A stretch of 64,000 nt of DNA from an uncultured Agrobacterium sp. (GTDB lineage: Bacteria > Pseudomonadota > Alphaproteobacteria > Rhizobiales > Rhizobiaceae), in the NCBI RefSeq assembly GCF_913777615.1, contig NZ_CAJYTK010000018.1; one strand, 5' to 3'. The translations under genes and the position numbers were made by a program. Shown piece by piece: positions 49,989 through 53,285 of the stretch (the first letter of the stretch is position 1; each line of letters begins with the position of its first letter). The notes beneath the pieces are model-generated. The model was not told the origin of the DNA, made no database searches, and saw only the letters and a program-made list of their open reading frames with translations.

Positions 49989-50121
49989 CCGTATCTGCCT
50001 TTGATAAGGCGAGGGATGGCCCCTCGCCGTGTTCGCCTTGCTAGCGAGAATTGAAGAGGTACAAATTGCCTACCGTCTTCATGACCAGCAAATAAACTGG
50101 CCGTGATAGGCACGAAAATTG

Positions 50122-50156
50122 AAAACCCGTCCATTCTCGAAAGTAACGGACGGGTT
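50122..50156 (-). terminator. Terminator after asd
   Basis: AACCCGTCC...GGACGGGTT inverted repeat (50124-50132 / 50148-50156) followed by T residues on the minus strand. Confidence 0.6.
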
Positions 50157-50183
50157 ATAGTTAATAGTTGTTAAAAAACCGTA

Positions 50184-51218
50184 TCACGCAGCGGCTTTGC
50201 GCGGCTTGATGAGACCGCGGTTGATCAGGAGTTCGGCAATCTGAACGGCGTTCAGGGCAGCACCCTTGCGCAGGTTGTCGGAAACGACCCAAATGTTGAG
50301 ACCGTTTTCAACGGTTGCATCTTCACGAATGCGCGAAATATATGTCGCATCTTCTCCTGCGCACTCGACCGGGGTCACGTAGCCGCCGTTTTCATGCTTG
50401 TCGATGACGAGACAACCGGGCGCTTCGCGAAGGATGTCGCGCGCCTGATCGGCAGTGATTTCGTTTTCGAACTCGATATTGACCGATTCCGAATGGCCGA
50501 TGAAGACAGGCACGCGCACGGCCGTGCAGGTCACCTTGATCTTCGGGTCCAGCATCTTCTTGGTTTCTGCCAGAACCTTCCACTCTTCCTTCGTGTAACC
50601 GTCTTCCATGAAGACATCGATATGCGGAATGACGTTGAAGGCAATGCGCTTGGTGAACTTCTTGGTTTCAACAGGGTCAGCCACGAAGACCGCACGAGTC
50701 TGCTGGAACAGCTCGTCCATGCCTTCCTTGCCAGCGCCAGAGACGGACTGGTACGTGGAGACAACTACGCGCTTGATCTTGGCAGCATCGTGCAGCGGCT
50801 TCAGCGCCACGACGAGTTGCGCCGTCGAGCAATTCGGGTTGGCAATGATGTTCTTCTTCTTGAAGCCCTCGACGGCGTCGGCGTTGACTTCCGGCACGAT
50901 CAGCGGAACGTCCTGATCGTAGCGCCAGGCAGAGGAGTTATCGATAACGACGCAACCCTGCGCACCGATCTTCGGGGACCACTTCTTGGACACATCGCCG
51001 CCAGCAGACATCAGGCAGATGTCGGTATCGGAGAAATCGTAGTTTTCGAGATTGGAAACCTTCAGCGTACGGTCGCCGTAAGACACTTCCGTGCCCTGGC
51101 TACGGGCAGAGGCCAGCGGAACGACTTCGTCTGCCGGGAACCCACGTTCCGCCAGAATATTCAGCATTTCGCGCCCGACATTACCGGTGGCGCCTGCGAT
51201 TGCAACTTTGAAACCCAT
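50184..51218 (-). CDS. asd: Aspartate-semialdehyde dehydrogenase
   Basis: VAIAGATGNVG, VIDNSSAWR, IANPNCST catalytic Cys, STYQSVSGAG, DNLRKGAALN; start ATG 51218. Confidence 0.97.
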   Translation of the reverse strand: MGFKVAIAGATGNVGREMLNILAERGFPADEVVPLASARSQGTEVSYGDRTLKVSNLENYDFSDTDICLMSAGGDVSKKWSPKIGAQGCVVIDNSSAWRYDQDVPLIVPEVNADAVEGFKKKNIIANPNCSTAQLVVALKPLHDAAKIKRVVVSTYQSVSGAGKEGMDELFQQTRAVFVADPVETKKFTKRIAFNVIPHIDVFMEDGYTKEEWKVLAETKKMLDPKIKVTCTAVRVPVFIGHSESVNIEFENEITADQARDILREAPGCLVIDKHENGGYVTPVECAGEDATYISRIREDATVENGLNIWVVSDNLRKGAALNAVQIAELLINRGLIKPRKAAA

Positions 51219-51352
51219 GATCAAGCTCTCTTTCTGCCTCTCCTCTTTTTGGTGAGGGGGAGCCGCCAAACTGCGGCTTCCTTTCCCCGGCCAAACCGGG
51301 GAGAGAGCGGCGGGCCAGAGACGTCAGACGATTTTAATCGTCGTTTTGGCCG
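51219..51352 (-). promoter_or_regulatory. Putative attenuator / RBS-sequestering leader structure of asd
   Basis: Hairpins at 51284-51302 and 51261-51278; control-codon segment 51345-51352 complementary to 51288-51295; GCUCUCU (51302-51308) complementary to AGAGAGC just before the asd ATG (51225-51231); no U-tract terminator. Confidence 0.6.
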
Positions 51353-51440
51353 TAATTCGGATGGCGTAGGAAAGGCGCGCAGGATCGCCGGCTGAACCCG
51401 CCGGGCTTTGCATGACGGTCATGTGCTGAACATGTCGCAT
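51324..51440 (-). CDS. Putative asd leader peptide, 38 aa (MRHVQHMTVMQSPAGSAGDPARLSYAIRITAKTTIKIV)
   Basis: Hand-translated, below the ORF-track cutoff. AAGGAG RBS 9 nt before the ATG; the last 12 codons contain 4 Ile, 3 Thr and 2 Lys, and there are 3 Met in the first 10. Confidence 0.75.
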   Translation of the reverse strand: MRHVQHMTVMQSPAGSAGDPARLSYAIRITAKTTIKIV

Positions 51441-51467
51441 GACGTTGCGCTCCTTTTCGTGCCAAAG

Positions 51468-51496
51468 CTATTAGGAGGTTTGTCTTTTCTGTCAAG
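51468..51496 (-). promoter_or_regulatory. Sigma-70 promoter of the leader-asd transcript
   Basis: Minus strand CTTGAC-N17-TAATAG; the implied start site (about 51461) lies just before the leader RBS. Confidence 0.65.
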
Positions 51497-51752
51497 CTCA
51501 AACATAGCCGCCGCCTGGCAGGTTTATCGGGTTTTTGCCGACAAGTTTGCGCACGCCGCAGCGCAGATAACGTGGTCGGTCTAGTTGTCATACAGGTTAC
51601 CAGCCGTGGCCGTGAACGATCTCAAACACCACCCGCAGTAAGAACATCGAATCTGACCCTTATGTTCTTGTTTTATTCTCTTTCCCGTGCCAAGTTAACT
51701 GCACGATAGGGTAGAGCCGTGCGGACGGCGAATACGGCTGTGGGGGCCATTC

Positions 51753-53285
51753 ATGGTAGCGCGCGTCAATACAATTGCGTTTCAGGGTATCGAGGGCGTC
51801 CCTGTCGAAGTTCAGGTCATGGTGGCACCTGGCAAAGTCGGAATGCAGATCGTCGGCCTGCCGGATAAGGCTGTCGCCGAAAGCCGCGAACGTGTCCAGG
51901 CGGCACTTCACGCATCCGGCCTCGCCATGCCCGCCAAGCGGGTCACGGTCAATCTCGCCCCTGCCGATCTTCCCAAAGAAGGCTCGCATTTTGACCTCCC
52001 AATCGCGCTTGGCCTTATGGCCGCACTTGGCGCCATTCCAGCAGAGGCGCTCAACCGCTTCGTCGTGTTGGGAGAACTTAATCTGGACGGTACAATCGGT
52101 GCGGTGGCAGGTGCTCTTCCAGCCGCGATTGCCGCCAACACGCAAGACAAGGGTCTGATCTGCCCCGCCGATAGCGGACCCGAAGCCGCATGGGCGGGTG
52201 CCGATATCGACATCCTTGCGCCGCGCAGCCTGATTGCCATCGCCAACCATTTTCGCGGCACGCAACTTCTCTCAAGACCGGTTCCCGCCATTCGCGCCAA
52301 CCCGGACAATCTGCCGGACCTGGCGGACATCAAAGGCCAGGAGAGCGCGAAACGCGCGCTCGAGGTTGCGGCAGCCGGTGGTCACAATCTCCTGATGGTT
52401 GGCCCGCCCGGCTCCGGCAAATCCATGCTGGCCTCCCGTCTGCCTTCAATTCTGCCACCGCTTTCGGCTTCTGAACTTCTCGAAGTCTCGATGGTACATT
52501 CGATTGCAGGCCAACTTTCAGGCGGTAAACTCTCCGATCGACGCCCGTTTAGAACACCGCACCACTCGGCGACGATGGCCGCCCTTGTCGGCGGAGGGTT
52601 GCGCGCCAAGCCGGGCGAGGCCTCGCTCGCCCACCACGGGGTGCTGTTTCTCGACGAATTTCCAGAATTCTCGCCGCAGGTGCTGGATGCGTTGCGCCAA
52701 CCGCTCGAAACCGGTGAATGCATCATCGCCCGCGCCAATCACCGCGTCAGCTATCCCGCCGAGATCCAGCTGGTGGCAGCCATGAACCCCTGCAAATGCG
52801 GCATGGCCGGTGAACCCGGCTTCACCTGCGCACGCGGCCCAAGATGCGTTTCCGATTACCAGGCGCGCATTTCCGGTCCGCTGATGGACCGCATCGATAT
52901 CCGTATCGAAGTTCCTGCCGTCTCCGCAGCCGACCTGATCCGCCCCATGGCAGCAGAGGCGAGCGCCGATGTGGCCCGCCGTGTCGCGCGTGCCCGCCAG
53001 ATGCAGGAAGAACGCTTTGCAGCCGCAGGCTTTCAGGGCATCCGCACCAATGCACGCTGCACCACGGCACTGATCGAAAAATACGCCGAGCCCGACGCAG
53101 CCGGTCTTCAGCTTTTGCGCGACGCCGCCGAGAAGCTGAAATTCTCCGCTCGCGGATATCACCGCATCCTCAAGGTTGCGAGGACGCTCGCCGATCTGGA
53201 CGATAAGGCTGTCGTCGGGCGACTGCATCTGGCGGAGGCTATTTCTTACCGCATCGCCGGTGAGAGGCTTTCTGCTGCGGCTTGA
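51753..53285 (+). CDS. comM: YifB/ComM-family Mg-chelatase-like AAA+ ATPase
   Basis: IVGLPDKAVAESRERV, NLAPADLPKEGSHFDLPIA, GPPGSGKS, RTPHHSAT, GVLFLDE, AAMNPCKCG, SGPLMDRID, LSARG-like FSARGYHRILKVARTLADL. Confidence 0.93.
   Translation: MVARVNTIAFQGIEGVPVEVQVMVAPGKVGMQIVGLPDKAVAESRERVQAALHASGLAMPAKRVTVNLAPADLPKEGSHFDLPIALGLMAALGAIPAEALNRFVVLGELNLDGTIGAVAGALPAAIAANTQDKGLICPADSGPEAAWAGADIDILAPRSLIAIANHFRGTQLLSRPVPAIRANPDNLPDLADIKGQESAKRALEVAAAGGHNLLMVGPPGSGKSMLASRLPSILPPLSASELLEVSMVHSIAGQLSGGKLSDRRPFRTPHHSATMAALVGGGLRAKPGEASLAHHGVLFLDEFPEFSPQVLDALRQPLETGECIIARANHRVSYPAEIQLVAAMNPCKCGMAGEPGFTCARGPRCVSDYQARISGPLMDRIDIRIEVPAVSAADLIRPMAAEASADVARRVARARQMQEERFAAAGFQGIRTNARCTTALIEKYAEPDAAGLQLLRDAAEKLKFSARGYHRILKVARTLADLDDKAVVGRLHLAEAISYRIAGERLSAAA

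What the first reader, a model, noticed from the sequence alone, without database searches (positions are those of the whole stretch)
51219..51496. Hidden leader peptide and attenuator-like RNA upstream of asd, reading aspartate-family amino acids
Seen in sequence (minus strand): a promoter CTTGAC-N17-TAATAG, then AAGGAG, then a 38-codon ORF (51440-51324) MRHVQHMTVMQSPAGSAGDPARLSYAIRITAKTTIKIV, absent from the ORF track. Its last 12 residues, IRITAKTTIKIV, are 9/12 Ile, Thr or Lys, and 3 Met lie at the start. The control-codon segment CGGCCAAA (51352-51345) is the exact complement of UUUGGCCG in the downstream hairpin (51295-51288), giving mutually exclusive folds. GCUCUCU 15 nt after the stop can pair with AGAGAGC in front of the asd ATG. 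There is no U-tract terminator. Established: Asd is the common step for Lys, Thr, Ile and Met synthesis, and leader-peptide attenuation (thrL, ilv, trp) uses codons for the end products. Inference: ribosome stalling under Ile/Thr/Lys limitation switches the fold and frees the asd RBS (translational or Rho-dependent attenuation), integrating three or four amino-acid signals in one leader. I cannot check whether this has been reported.
Basis: partly seen in the sequence, partly recalled or inferred. Interest (0 to 1): 0.85.

Follow-up and report, generated by a model that had tools for sequence, protein, structure and literature searches.

The report
Threonine/lysine leader peptide controlling asd
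A tiny upstream gene ending in a run of threonine, lysine and isoleucine codons, followed by a conserved switchable RNA, sits in front of the Agrobacterium asd gene; it is the local copy of an order-wide element noted once in Sinorhizobium and probably raises Asd when those amino acids run short.

Summary
The 38-codon ORF (51440-51324, minus strand) is real. An SD-preceded ORF, mostly 38-40 codons, ends at the same place in all 95 distinct leaders examined, from about 70 genera of the GTDB family. A covariance model also finds it upstream of asd in about 10 other families of the order.

The N-terminus is not conserved. The last 12 residues are 43% Thr and 23% Lys. Ile codons are specific to Agrobacterium, the window's genus. 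Met sensing is unsupported.

The S. meliloti orthologue, SEP5, was shown to be translated by Ribo-seq and Western blot. Hadjeras et al. 2023 (PMC10117765) called it "possibly a leader peptide". The idea is therefore published as a suggestion, and the mechanism is untested.

The RNA offers a three-strand choice:
- Strand 1 lies in the control codons, strand 2 just after the stop, strand 3 in the next hairpin.

The window has no terminator. Mesorhizobium-like relatives have a U-tract hairpin that behaves as a classical attenuator. In Agrobacterium, RBS masking by a CU-rich strand is the best guess, but folding supports it only weakly.

This scan had already found the same element on other genomes. 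It is a new member of a known kind, of moderate interest.

The parts
51491..51496 (-). -35 box CTTGAC of the leader/asd promoter
   Evidence: Invariant in all aligned genera. Nucleotide conservation begins exactly here. It lies 50-56 nt before the ORF start in most leaders. The function is inferred, as no TSS data were available.
51468..51473 (-). -10-like box TAATAG, 17 nt after the -35 box
   Evidence: Conserved in Agrobacterium; other genera have TAAGAG, TATGAG or TAAAGG. The E. coli-consensus scan does not call it.
51450..51455 (-). Shine-Dalgarno AAGGAG of the leader ORF
   Evidence: Invariant GGAG core in Agrobacterium. A purine-rich SD precedes the start codon in other genera.
51324..51440 (-). 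Leader ORF, 38 codons plus TGA; orthologue of S. meliloti SEP5
   Evidence: The frame is kept in 95 of 95 leaders, and length is 38-40 codons in 76 of 95. The only indel seen within the control-codon block is a 3-nt insertion, an extra ACG in L057. Variation is highest at third codon positions. The orthologue is translated by Ribo-seq and Western blot.
51388..51404 (-). GC hairpin inside the ORF (CCGGC, 7 nt, GCCGG), codons 13-18; possible RNA polymerase pause or timing hairpin
   Evidence: A hairpin of varying sequence sits 35-41 nt after the start codon in nearly all sampled leaders. The role is inferred.
51327..51362 (-). Control codons: last 12 sense codons IRITAKTTIKIV (4 Ile, 3 Thr, 2 Lys)
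   Evidence: Family-wide, the last 12 residues are T 43% and K 23%, with a median of 8 of 12 T+K. Lys is AAA in 244 of 264 codons, against 24% AAA in the window's long genes.
51345..51352 (-). Strand 1 (CGGCCAAA, Thr-Ala-Lys codons)
   Evidence: It pairs with strand 2 (helix P0) in all lineages. There are compensatory AGCC:GGCU changes in L098 and L110.
51327..51343 (-). Mini-hairpin in the last codons (Ht)
   Evidence: Synonymous third positions of two Thr codons covary: G:C in 36 leaders and C:G in 25.
51313..51323 (-). Strand 2 (CGUCUCUGGCC), directly after the stop codon
   Evidence: It can pair with strand 1 (P0) or with strand 3 (helix 2:3). About 92-99% (P0) and 93-98% (2:3) of cells form pairs. 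A terminating ribosome would cover it; this is inferred from the standard ribosome footprint.
51302..51308 (-). B, a CU-rich anti-SD-like strand (GCUCUCU)
   Evidence: It forms a 7-bp helix with box D in the minimum-energy fold. It pairs with the upstream GA box in Mesorhizobium-like leaders (CCCUCUCC:GGAGAGGG) and in L098-100 (CUCUCUUCC:GGAAGAGAG).
51285..51301 (-). Hairpin P1 (CCCCGG, loop, CCGGGG); its 3' half is strand 3
   Evidence: The stem halves are 98.6% and 89.6% paired, with G-U variants. It is mutually exclusive with helix 2:3, which is 5-9 kcal/mol more stable when strand 2 is free.
51259..51281 (-). Hairpin P2 (variable GC hairpin); no U tract in the window
   Evidence: It is present with different sequence and length in nearly all leaders. 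It is followed by U4-U6 in Mesorhizobium-like relatives and by UCCCCC here.
51237..51245 (-). Box C, GAGGAGAGG (GGAGAG nearly invariant)
   Evidence: It is an alternative partner of B (96.7% paired).
51225..51231 (-). Box D, AGAGAGC, 6 nt before the asd ATG; ribosome-binding region of asd
   Evidence: Invariant in the Agrobacterium/Rhizobium/Sinorhizobium-like group, which has no canonical SD core at -16 to -4 (63 of 94 leaders). The other group has CAGGAGA instead.
50184..51218 (-). asd (aspartate-semialdehyde dehydrogenase), the regulated gene
   Evidence: The N-terminus MGFKVAIAGATGNVGREML is shared by all relatives.

Best explanation
This is a ribosome-mediated, leader-peptide attenuator of asd. 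It reads the supply of charged Thr- and Lys-tRNA, and in Agrobacterium also Ile-tRNA.

A sigma-70-type promoter makes a leader of about 250 nt, and its 38-codon ORF is translated.

When supply is good (inferred):
1. The ribosome runs to the UGA, where it covers strand 2 (CGUCUCUGGCC).
2. Hairpin P1 forms. After release, strand 2 pairs back onto strand 1 inside the ORF (P0).
3. The CU-rich strand B is then a free linker and pairs with the AGAGAGC box just before the asd ATG.
4. Initiation is low. Rho may add polarity.

When Thr, Lys or Ile is short (inferred):
1. The ribosome stalls on the last 2-10 codons and covers strand 1.
2. Strand 2 pairs with strand 3 as soon as strand 3 is made, which prevents P1.
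3. Strand B is locked in a 9-nt hairpin loop.
4. The asd ribosome-binding region stays open and Asd synthesis rises.

Shown here: the ORF, its codon bias, the conserved alternative helices, and the lack of a terminator.
Shown elsewhere: translation of the orthologue.
Inferred: stalling, the direction of the switch, and the output step.
For: - ORF and SD are conserved in frame in 95 of 95 leaders, with a variable N-terminus. Length is 38-40 codons in 76 of 95.
- The last 12 residues are 66% Thr+Lys, while neither is among the ten commonest residues in the rest of the peptide. Third codon positions vary most.
- Minor codons AAA and ATT are preferred.
- The orthologue SEP5 is translated, shown by Ribo-seq and a tagged Western blot.
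- Helices P0, Ht and P1 are about 90-99% pairable and helix 2:3 is 93-98% pairable, against 28-57% overall when partners are slid.
- Compensatory changes in L098-L100 and L110 keep 1:2 and 2:3.
- With strand 1 masked, the nascent RNA folds into 2:3 in at least 71 of 94 leaders, 5-9 kcal/mol better than P1.
- B:D closes the minimum-energy fold of the window.
- 63 of 94 leaders, including the window, lack a canonical SD and carry the B-complementary box.
- Enforcing 2:3 lowers SD pairing from 0.66 to 0.54 on average, falling by more than 0.1 in 47 leaders and rising by more than 0.1 in 10.
- One copy per genome, always before asd.
Against:
- Simple ribosome-masking thermodynamics show no consistent change in SD accessibility, and the effect is small.
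- At equilibrium, P1 plus B:D stays the minimum-energy fold even with strand 1 removed. The model therefore needs kinetic, co-transcriptional trapping.
- The CU-rich and G-rich strands pair promiscuously. Shuffled strand 2 still gives a median -15.6 kcal/mol against -19.8 for the real one.
- Most helix columns are nearly invariant, so covariation rests on a few lineages.
- B and D never vary within the window's clade.
Confidence: 0.55

Rival explanations
1. Classical transcription attenuation also operates in the window. Hairpin P2 (51281-51259), with its pyrimidine tail, acts as a weak intrinsic terminator whose efficiency depends on the upstream fold.
For: - In Mesorhizobium-like relatives the equivalent hairpin is followed by U4-U6.
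- In four of them (L072, L077, L081, L102) it is predicted to be disrupted when strand 1 is masked and formed when strand 2 is masked. P2 probability goes from 0.00-0.03 to 0.20 in L081 and 0.86-0.99 in the other three.
- Earlier scan notes on other genomes describe complete terminators.
Against: - In the window the tail is UCCCCCUC, with 1-2 U.
- P2 forms in every modelled state in most of the Agrobacterium/Rhizobium/Sinorhizobium-like leaders sampled.
- The genome uses normal U-tract terminators, for example after asd.
- The terminator scan finds none here.
Confidence: 0.15
2. Rho-dependent attenuation is the primary output. The C-rich untranslated RNA after the stop codon loads Rho unless a stalled ribosome or the alternative fold hides it, as in the tna operon.
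For: - The 26 nt after the stop are C-rich and G-poor.
- There is no intrinsic terminator, and the leader peptide stop lies next to the C-rich tract.
- Any block of asd initiation would invite Rho polarity (established knowledge of Rho).
Against: - The C-rich stretch is short and is followed by G-rich, strongly structured RNA (P1, P2).
- A ribosome stalled at codons -8 to -3 would not cover it.
Confidence: 0.12
3. The ORF is translated but does not sense amino acids. It is either a constitutive upstream ORF whose translation opens the structured leader (plain translational coupling), or a small protein with a role of its own.
For: - Tagged SEP5 is detectable as a soluble peptide.
- A terminating ribosome would itself unwind strand 2.
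- ORF length is conserved.
Against: - The N-terminal two thirds are not conserved as protein.
- Only the Thr/Lys cluster is kept, with synonymous variation and minor codons.
- The amino acids match the pathway of the downstream gene in about 70 genera and about 10 other families.
Confidence: 0.1
4. The conserved RNA is a ligand- or protein-binding element (riboswitch-like), and the ORF is incidental.
For: About 140 nt of near-invariant RNA with several helices.
Against: - Hairpin loops are variable. The invariant bases are the ones needed for two alternative pairings.
- The ORF frame, SD and codon bias are conserved.
- There is no Rfam match.
Confidence: 0.05

Closest known systems
S. meliloti 2011 SEP5 (sORF SM2011_c04409 region, between SM2011_c04408 and asd SM2011_c04410; Hadjeras et al. 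2023, PMC10117765)
   Same: - Orthologous position upstream of asd.
- 39 against 38 codons.
- Same end of the peptide (TAKTT-KTV) and the same downstream RNA blocks.
- The authors noted six Thr and three Lys codons and suggested a leader peptide.
   Different: - The window's copy has Ile codons in place of three positions (IRITAKTTIKIV).
- The paper stated conservation only in Sinorhizobium and described no RNA structure or mechanism. Here the element is found across the order, with a defined alternative-helix scheme.
E. coli thr operon leader thrL (Rfam Thr_leader RF00506)
   Same: A short leader ORF with Thr and Ile control codons. Strand 1 of a hairpin overlaps the control codons. It gives multivalent control of an aspartate-family gene.
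   Different: - No sequence or covariance-model match.
- Lys codons are included.
- The ORF is about twice as long.
- It controls asd, not thrABC.
- There is no hairpin plus U-tract terminator in the window.
Translational attenuation leaders (ermC, cat, cmlA type)
   Same: The proposed output is the same. A ribosome stalled in a leader ORF re-pairs the RNA so that the downstream ribosome-binding site is freed, with no terminator involved.
   Different: Those leaders stall through a drug-dependent arrest peptide. Here the proposed signal is uncharged tRNA at clustered codons. No arrest motif is conserved, and the SD-masking step is only weakly supported by folding.
S. meliloti / Agrobacterium trp attenuator (trpL, rnTrpL/peTrpL)
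   Same: A ribosome-dependent leader-peptide attenuator in the same bacterial family.
   Different: trpL is 14 codons and has a real terminator that releases an sRNA. The asd leader is unrelated in sequence, and in this clade it lacks a terminator.

Membership tests
Leader-peptide (ribosome-mediated) attenuators | Short translated ORF in the 5' leader of a biosynthetic gene | tested here: met
   An ORF with an SD is conserved in frame in 95 of 95 leaders. Translation is shown only for the S. meliloti orthologue, in the literature.
Leader-peptide (ribosome-mediated) attenuators | Cluster of codons for the pathway's end-product amino acids near the 3' end of the ORF | tested here: met
   The last 12 residues are T 43% and K 23% family-wide. 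The window has 4 Ile, 3 Thr and 2 Lys.
Leader-peptide (ribosome-mediated) attenuators | Mutually exclusive helices, the first strand overlapping the control codons | tested here: met
   Strand 1:2 (P0) competes with 2:3, which competes with P1. All helices are mostly above 90% pairable (89.6-99%), with a few compensatory changes. The caveat is low variation and promiscuous CU/G-rich strands.
Leader-peptide (ribosome-mediated) attenuators | Intrinsic terminator (GC hairpin plus U tract) before the structural gene | tested here: not met
   In the window, P2 is followed by UCCCCCUC and no terminator is called. The feature is met in several Mesorhizobium-like relatives. The window therefore works like an attenuator but lacks the classical output module.
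Leader-peptide (ribosome-mediated) attenuators | Expression responds to supply of the cognate amino acids | not testable with these tools
   This needs reporter or RNA measurements.
Rfam Thr_leader (RF00506) and asd RNA motif (RF01732) | Match to the family covariance model | tested here: not met
   A permissive cmscan (E up to 10) of 50000-53000 returned only four chance-level hits to unrelated families.
SEP5 / asd leader family of Hyphomicrobiales (uncurated) | Same locus (directly upstream of asd), about 39-codon ORF ending ...AK-T-T-x-K-T-V, followed by the CUCUCC, CCCCGG and GGAGAG blocks | tested here: met
   Alignments with 26 or more other genera. The SEP5 sequence in the paper's supplement carries the same blocks. 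Covariance model R1 scores the window at 143.9 bits.
Translational attenuation (ermC-like) | The SD or start of the downstream gene is sequestered in one fold and free in the other | tested here: inconclusive
   B:D masks positions -13 to -7 in the minimum-energy fold. Masking tests show no consistent change, and enforcing 2:3 lowers SD pairing only from 0.66 to 0.54.

The most novel reading that the evidence does not exclude
One leader family has changed both its input and its output during evolution. Mesorhizobium-like lineages use a classical terminator read-out. The Agrobacterium/Rhizobium/Sinorhizobium lineage has lost the U tract and the canonical asd SD, and instead masks the ribosome-binding site with a CU-rich strand released by a three-strand relay. 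Agrobacterium further retuned the sensor from Thr/Lys to Thr/Lys/Ile by replacing Thr codons with minor Ile codons.
Probability: 0.3. Interest if true: 0.6.

Novelty: new member of a known kind. Interest (0 to 1): 0.45.

Why it matters
Asd is the last step shared by the lysine, threonine, methionine, isoleucine and diaminopimelate (cell-wall) pathways. How alphaproteobacteria control it is essentially undescribed.

The work gives three things:
- A conserved Thr/Lys-reading leader found across the Rhizobium/Agrobacterium/Brucella-type order, which offers a concrete, testable control point.
- Evidence that a Ribo-seq 'small protein' of S. meliloti belongs to a wide regulatory RNA family that is missing from Rfam.
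- A natural series in which the same sensor appears to be wired to different outputs, and in Agrobacterium to an extra amino acid.

It is not a new principle. Leader-peptide attenuation is textbook, and the basic idea was already suggested for SEP5.

Tried and rejected
- **Rfam.** A permissive scan gave nothing relevant.
- **Promoter and terminator scan.** It gave no promoter call and no relevant terminator.
- **RNAalifold on the MAFFT alignment.** The consensus was poor because the variable hairpin and the C/G tracts are misaligned. I replaced it with hand-defined helices counted on the same alignment and with per-sequence folding.
- **Ribosome-footprint masking.** SD accessibility showed no consistent change.
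- **Equilibrium folds.** With the 5' part removed, they keep P1 plus B:D.
Rejected. It is strong in the window (-15.6 kcal/mol) but broken in L099, L100 and L110 and weakened in several Agrobacterium species.
- **Met sensing.** Rejected, because the Met codons are not conserved.
- **An N-terminally extended Asd from the in-frame TTG at 51269.** Rejected, because indels in relatives are not multiples of three and the Asd N-terminus is conserved from the ATG.
- **Collection-wide pattern scan.** The first scan returned only 10 records, so it could not serve as a census.
- **Other literature.** Searches for the peptide motif, for an Agrobacterium Ribo-seq study and for asd leaders found nothing beyond Hadjeras et al. 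2023.

Full report
**1. Observation**

- CTTGAC (51496-51491), a 17-nt spacer, then TAATAG (51473-51468).
- AAGGAG (51455-51450), then ATG at 51440 opening a 38-codon ORF that ends with TGA at 51326-51324.
- The asd ATG is at 51218.
- CGGCCAAA (51352-51345) is the exact complement of TTTGGCCG (51295-51288).
- GCTCTCT (51308-51302) is complementary to AGAGAGC (51225-51231).

The GC hairpin at 51281-51259 is followed by UCCCCCUC, so there is no U-tract terminator. Rfam has no match even at E up to 10. The fold of the single sequence is not exceptional (z = -1.83). Any case for function therefore has to come from comparison with relatives.

**2. Conservation**

The window belongs to Agrobacterium.

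Within the genus:
- In all 36 same-genus genomes searched, nucleotide conservation (81-93%) begins at the -35 box and runs into asd. Nothing upstream of the -35 box is conserved.
- Inside the ORF there is not a single indel in 30 Agrobacterium leaders.
- The start is ATG, or a TTG one codon earlier.
- The first two thirds of the peptide vary freely.
- Everything from the codons for SIRITAKTTIK(T/I)V to the asd ATG is almost invariant, third codon positions included. This implies constraint on the RNA as well as on the peptide.

Across the GTDB family:
- 139 of 301 genomes, in 71 of 135 genera, give a BLAST match to the 3' two thirds of the leader.
- I collected 95 distinct leaders.
- Every one has an SD-preceded ORF ending at the same place. 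Length is 39 codons in 54 leaders and 38-40 codons in 76.
- The only indel seen within the control-codon block is an extra ACG codon in L057.
- The last 12 residues are 43% Thr and 23% Lys, with a median of 8 of 12. Neither residue is among the ten commonest in the rest of the peptide.
- In the last eight codons, variation by codon position is 0.03, 0.08 and 0.16, as expected for a translated sequence.
- Lys is encoded by AAA in 244 of 264 cases. The window's own long genes use AAA for only 24% of Lys codons. The Agrobacterium Ile codons are mostly the minor ATT.

Across the order:
- A covariance model built from 74 leaders (R1) finds the element in 22 of 151 genomes sampled across the order.
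- These include about 10 families other than the window's own.
- In all but one truncated locus, the hit lies about 90-116 nt upstream of an asd start and follows a Thr/Lys-rich ORF end.
- The window's genome has one copy.

**3. Prior knowledge**

Hadjeras et al. 2023 (PMC10117765) detected the S. meliloti 2011 orthologue as SEP5:
- It has 39 residues, ends ...KTTAKTTTKTV, and lies between SM2011_c04408 and asd.
- It was detected by Ribo-seq and by Western blot of a tagged construct that carried the native SD.
- The authors noted six Thr and three Lys codons near its 3' end.
- They wrote that it is 'possibly a leader peptide', conserved only in Sinorhizobium.

I found no follow-up work, no description of the RNA and no Rfam family. 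Some gene callers list the Agrobacterium peptide as a hypothetical protein of 38 or 60 residues. Earlier notes of this scan describe the same element on other genomes and similar asd leaders in other phyla. I treated those as leads only.

**4. RNA anatomy**

From 5' to 3' the recurrent elements are:
- A GC hairpin of variable sequence at codons 13-18 (51404-51388).
- Strand 1, GGCCA, inside the Thr-Ala-Lys codons.
- A mini-hairpin in the last four codons. The third positions of two Thr codons covary there, G:C in 36 leaders and C:G in 25.
- The stop codon.
- Strand 2 (CGUCUCUGGCC, or UCUCCCUUGGCC in other genera).
- The CU-rich strand B.
- Hairpin P1 (CCCCGG, loop, CCGGGG), whose 3' half is strand 3.
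- A variable GC hairpin, P2.
- A nearly invariant GGAGAG box (C).
- The asd ribosome-binding region (D).

Evidence for the helices:
- Strand 1 pairs with strand 2 (P0) in all lineages.
- Strand 2 is also complementary to strand 3 over 9-10 bp.
- Counted on the alignment, P0, the mini-hairpin, P1 and B:D together form standard pairs in 90.8% of cells.
- The alternative set (2:3 plus B:C) pairs in 94.9% of cells. With partners slid by 1-3 columns the figure is 28-57%.
- Variation is low, so covariation is thin, but it is discriminating.
  - Where strand 2 became GGCU, strand 1 became AGCC (L098, L110) and strand 3 became AGCC (L099, L100, L110).
- Strand B pairs with a partner that differs between clades:
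  - GCUCUCU with AGAGAGC in the window's clade.
  - CCCUCUCC with GGAGAGGG in Mesorhizobium-like leaders.
  - CUCUCUUCC with GGAAGAGAG in L098-L100.

**5. The switch**

- If strand 1 is masked, as under a ribosome stalled on the control codons, the nascent RNA up to strand 3 folds into 2:3 in at least 71 of 94 leaders. That fold is 5-9 kcal/mol more stable than P1 alone. In the window the values are -19.3 against -14.1 kcal/mol.
- If strand 2 is masked, as under a terminating ribosome, or is paired in P0, then P1 forms.
- This is the logic of a classical attenuator, and it explains why these strands are nearly invariant: each has to satisfy two pairings.
- One caution applies. CU-rich and G-rich strands pair readily. 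A shuffled strand 2 still reaches a median of -15.6 kcal/mol, against -19.8 for the real strand.

**6. The output**

Two architectures appear.

*Mesorhizobium-like leaders (31 of 94):*
- asd has a canonical AGGAG Shine-Dalgarno.
- P2 is often followed by a U-rich tail of up to five or six U (U at three or more of the six positions after the stem in 13 of 31).
- In L072, L077, L081 and L102, P2 is predicted to be disrupted when strand 1 is masked and formed when strand 2 is masked. P2 probability goes from 0.00-0.03 to 0.20 in L081 and 0.86-0.99 in the other three. That is classical transcription attenuation.

*The window's clade (63 of 94):*
- P2 forms in every modelled state in most leaders sampled, and its tail has 1-3 U.
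- asd lacks a canonical SD core.
- The invariant AAAGAGAGC box is complementary to strand B.
- In the 2:3 fold, strand B sits in a 9-nt hairpin loop. In the P0 plus P1 fold it is a free linker that closes the minimum-energy structure by pairing with box D.
- I therefore favour RBS masking that is relieved by stalling, possibly reinforced by Rho polarity.
- This step is inferred. Masking thermodynamics show no consistent change, and enforcing 2:3 lowers SD pairing only from 0.66 to 0.54. Equilibrium folding prefers P1 plus B:D in all states, so kinetic trapping would be required.

**7. Which amino acids**

- Thr and Lys are the conserved signals.
- Ile codons replace Ser, Thr and Thr at positions -12, -10 and -4 in Agrobacterium and, among the leaders examined, one other genus. 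This is a plausible retuning, because Ile is made from Thr (established pathway knowledge).
- The Met codons near the start are not conserved outside the genus and lie far upstream of the switch. Met sensing is not supported.

**8. Verdict**

- It is wrong in its specific alternative fold, and it overreaches on Met.
- The element is the Agrobacterium member of an order-wide, uncurated family whose S. meliloti copy was already flagged in print.
- It is a new member of a known kind, of moderate interest.
- Its main value is a well-defined experimental system and a possible case of one sensor wired to different outputs.

Noticed in passing
window 51388-51404 (-): A GC hairpin (CCGGC, 7 nt, GCCGG) lies inside the leader ORF at codons 13-18. 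A hairpin of different sequence sits 35-41 nt after the start codon in nearly all sampled leaders. It may be an RNA polymerase pause or timing element, and it would explain the conserved ORF length.
   Followed up: partly
window 51327-51362 (-) and 95 related leaders: The control region prefers minor codons. Lys is AAA in 244 of 264 cases, against 24% AAA in the window's long genes. Ile is mostly ATT, against 25% ATT genome-wide. This could tune sensitivity, as with rare CUA codons in the E. coli leu leader, or it could be an RNA constraint.
   Followed up: partly
L072, L077, L081, L102 (Mesorhizobium-like leaders): In these relatives the hairpin equivalent to P2 carries a more U-rich tail (three to five U in the next 8 nt). 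It is predicted to be disrupted by strand 2 when the control codons are masked. The same family therefore seems to use a classical terminator read-out there, but not in Agrobacterium.
   Followed up: partly
window about 50114-50154 (-): A probable intrinsic terminator of asd: an inverted repeat CCCGTCC...GGACGGG followed by TTTTCAATTTT. The simple scan missed it because the loop is long.
   Followed up: no
S. meliloti CP004140.1:3620169-3620339 (literature): The older 56-residue annotation SM2011_c04409 starts at a TTG that is part of the conserved -35 box (CTTGACT). Some Agrobacterium gene calls of 60 or 93 residues are probably the same kind of over-extension.
   Followed up: no
window 51753-53285 (+): The divergent upstream neighbour is a ComM/YifB-type Mg-chelatase-like ATPase. 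The roughly 250 nt between it and the -35 box is conserved only in the closest same-genus relatives.
   Followed up: no
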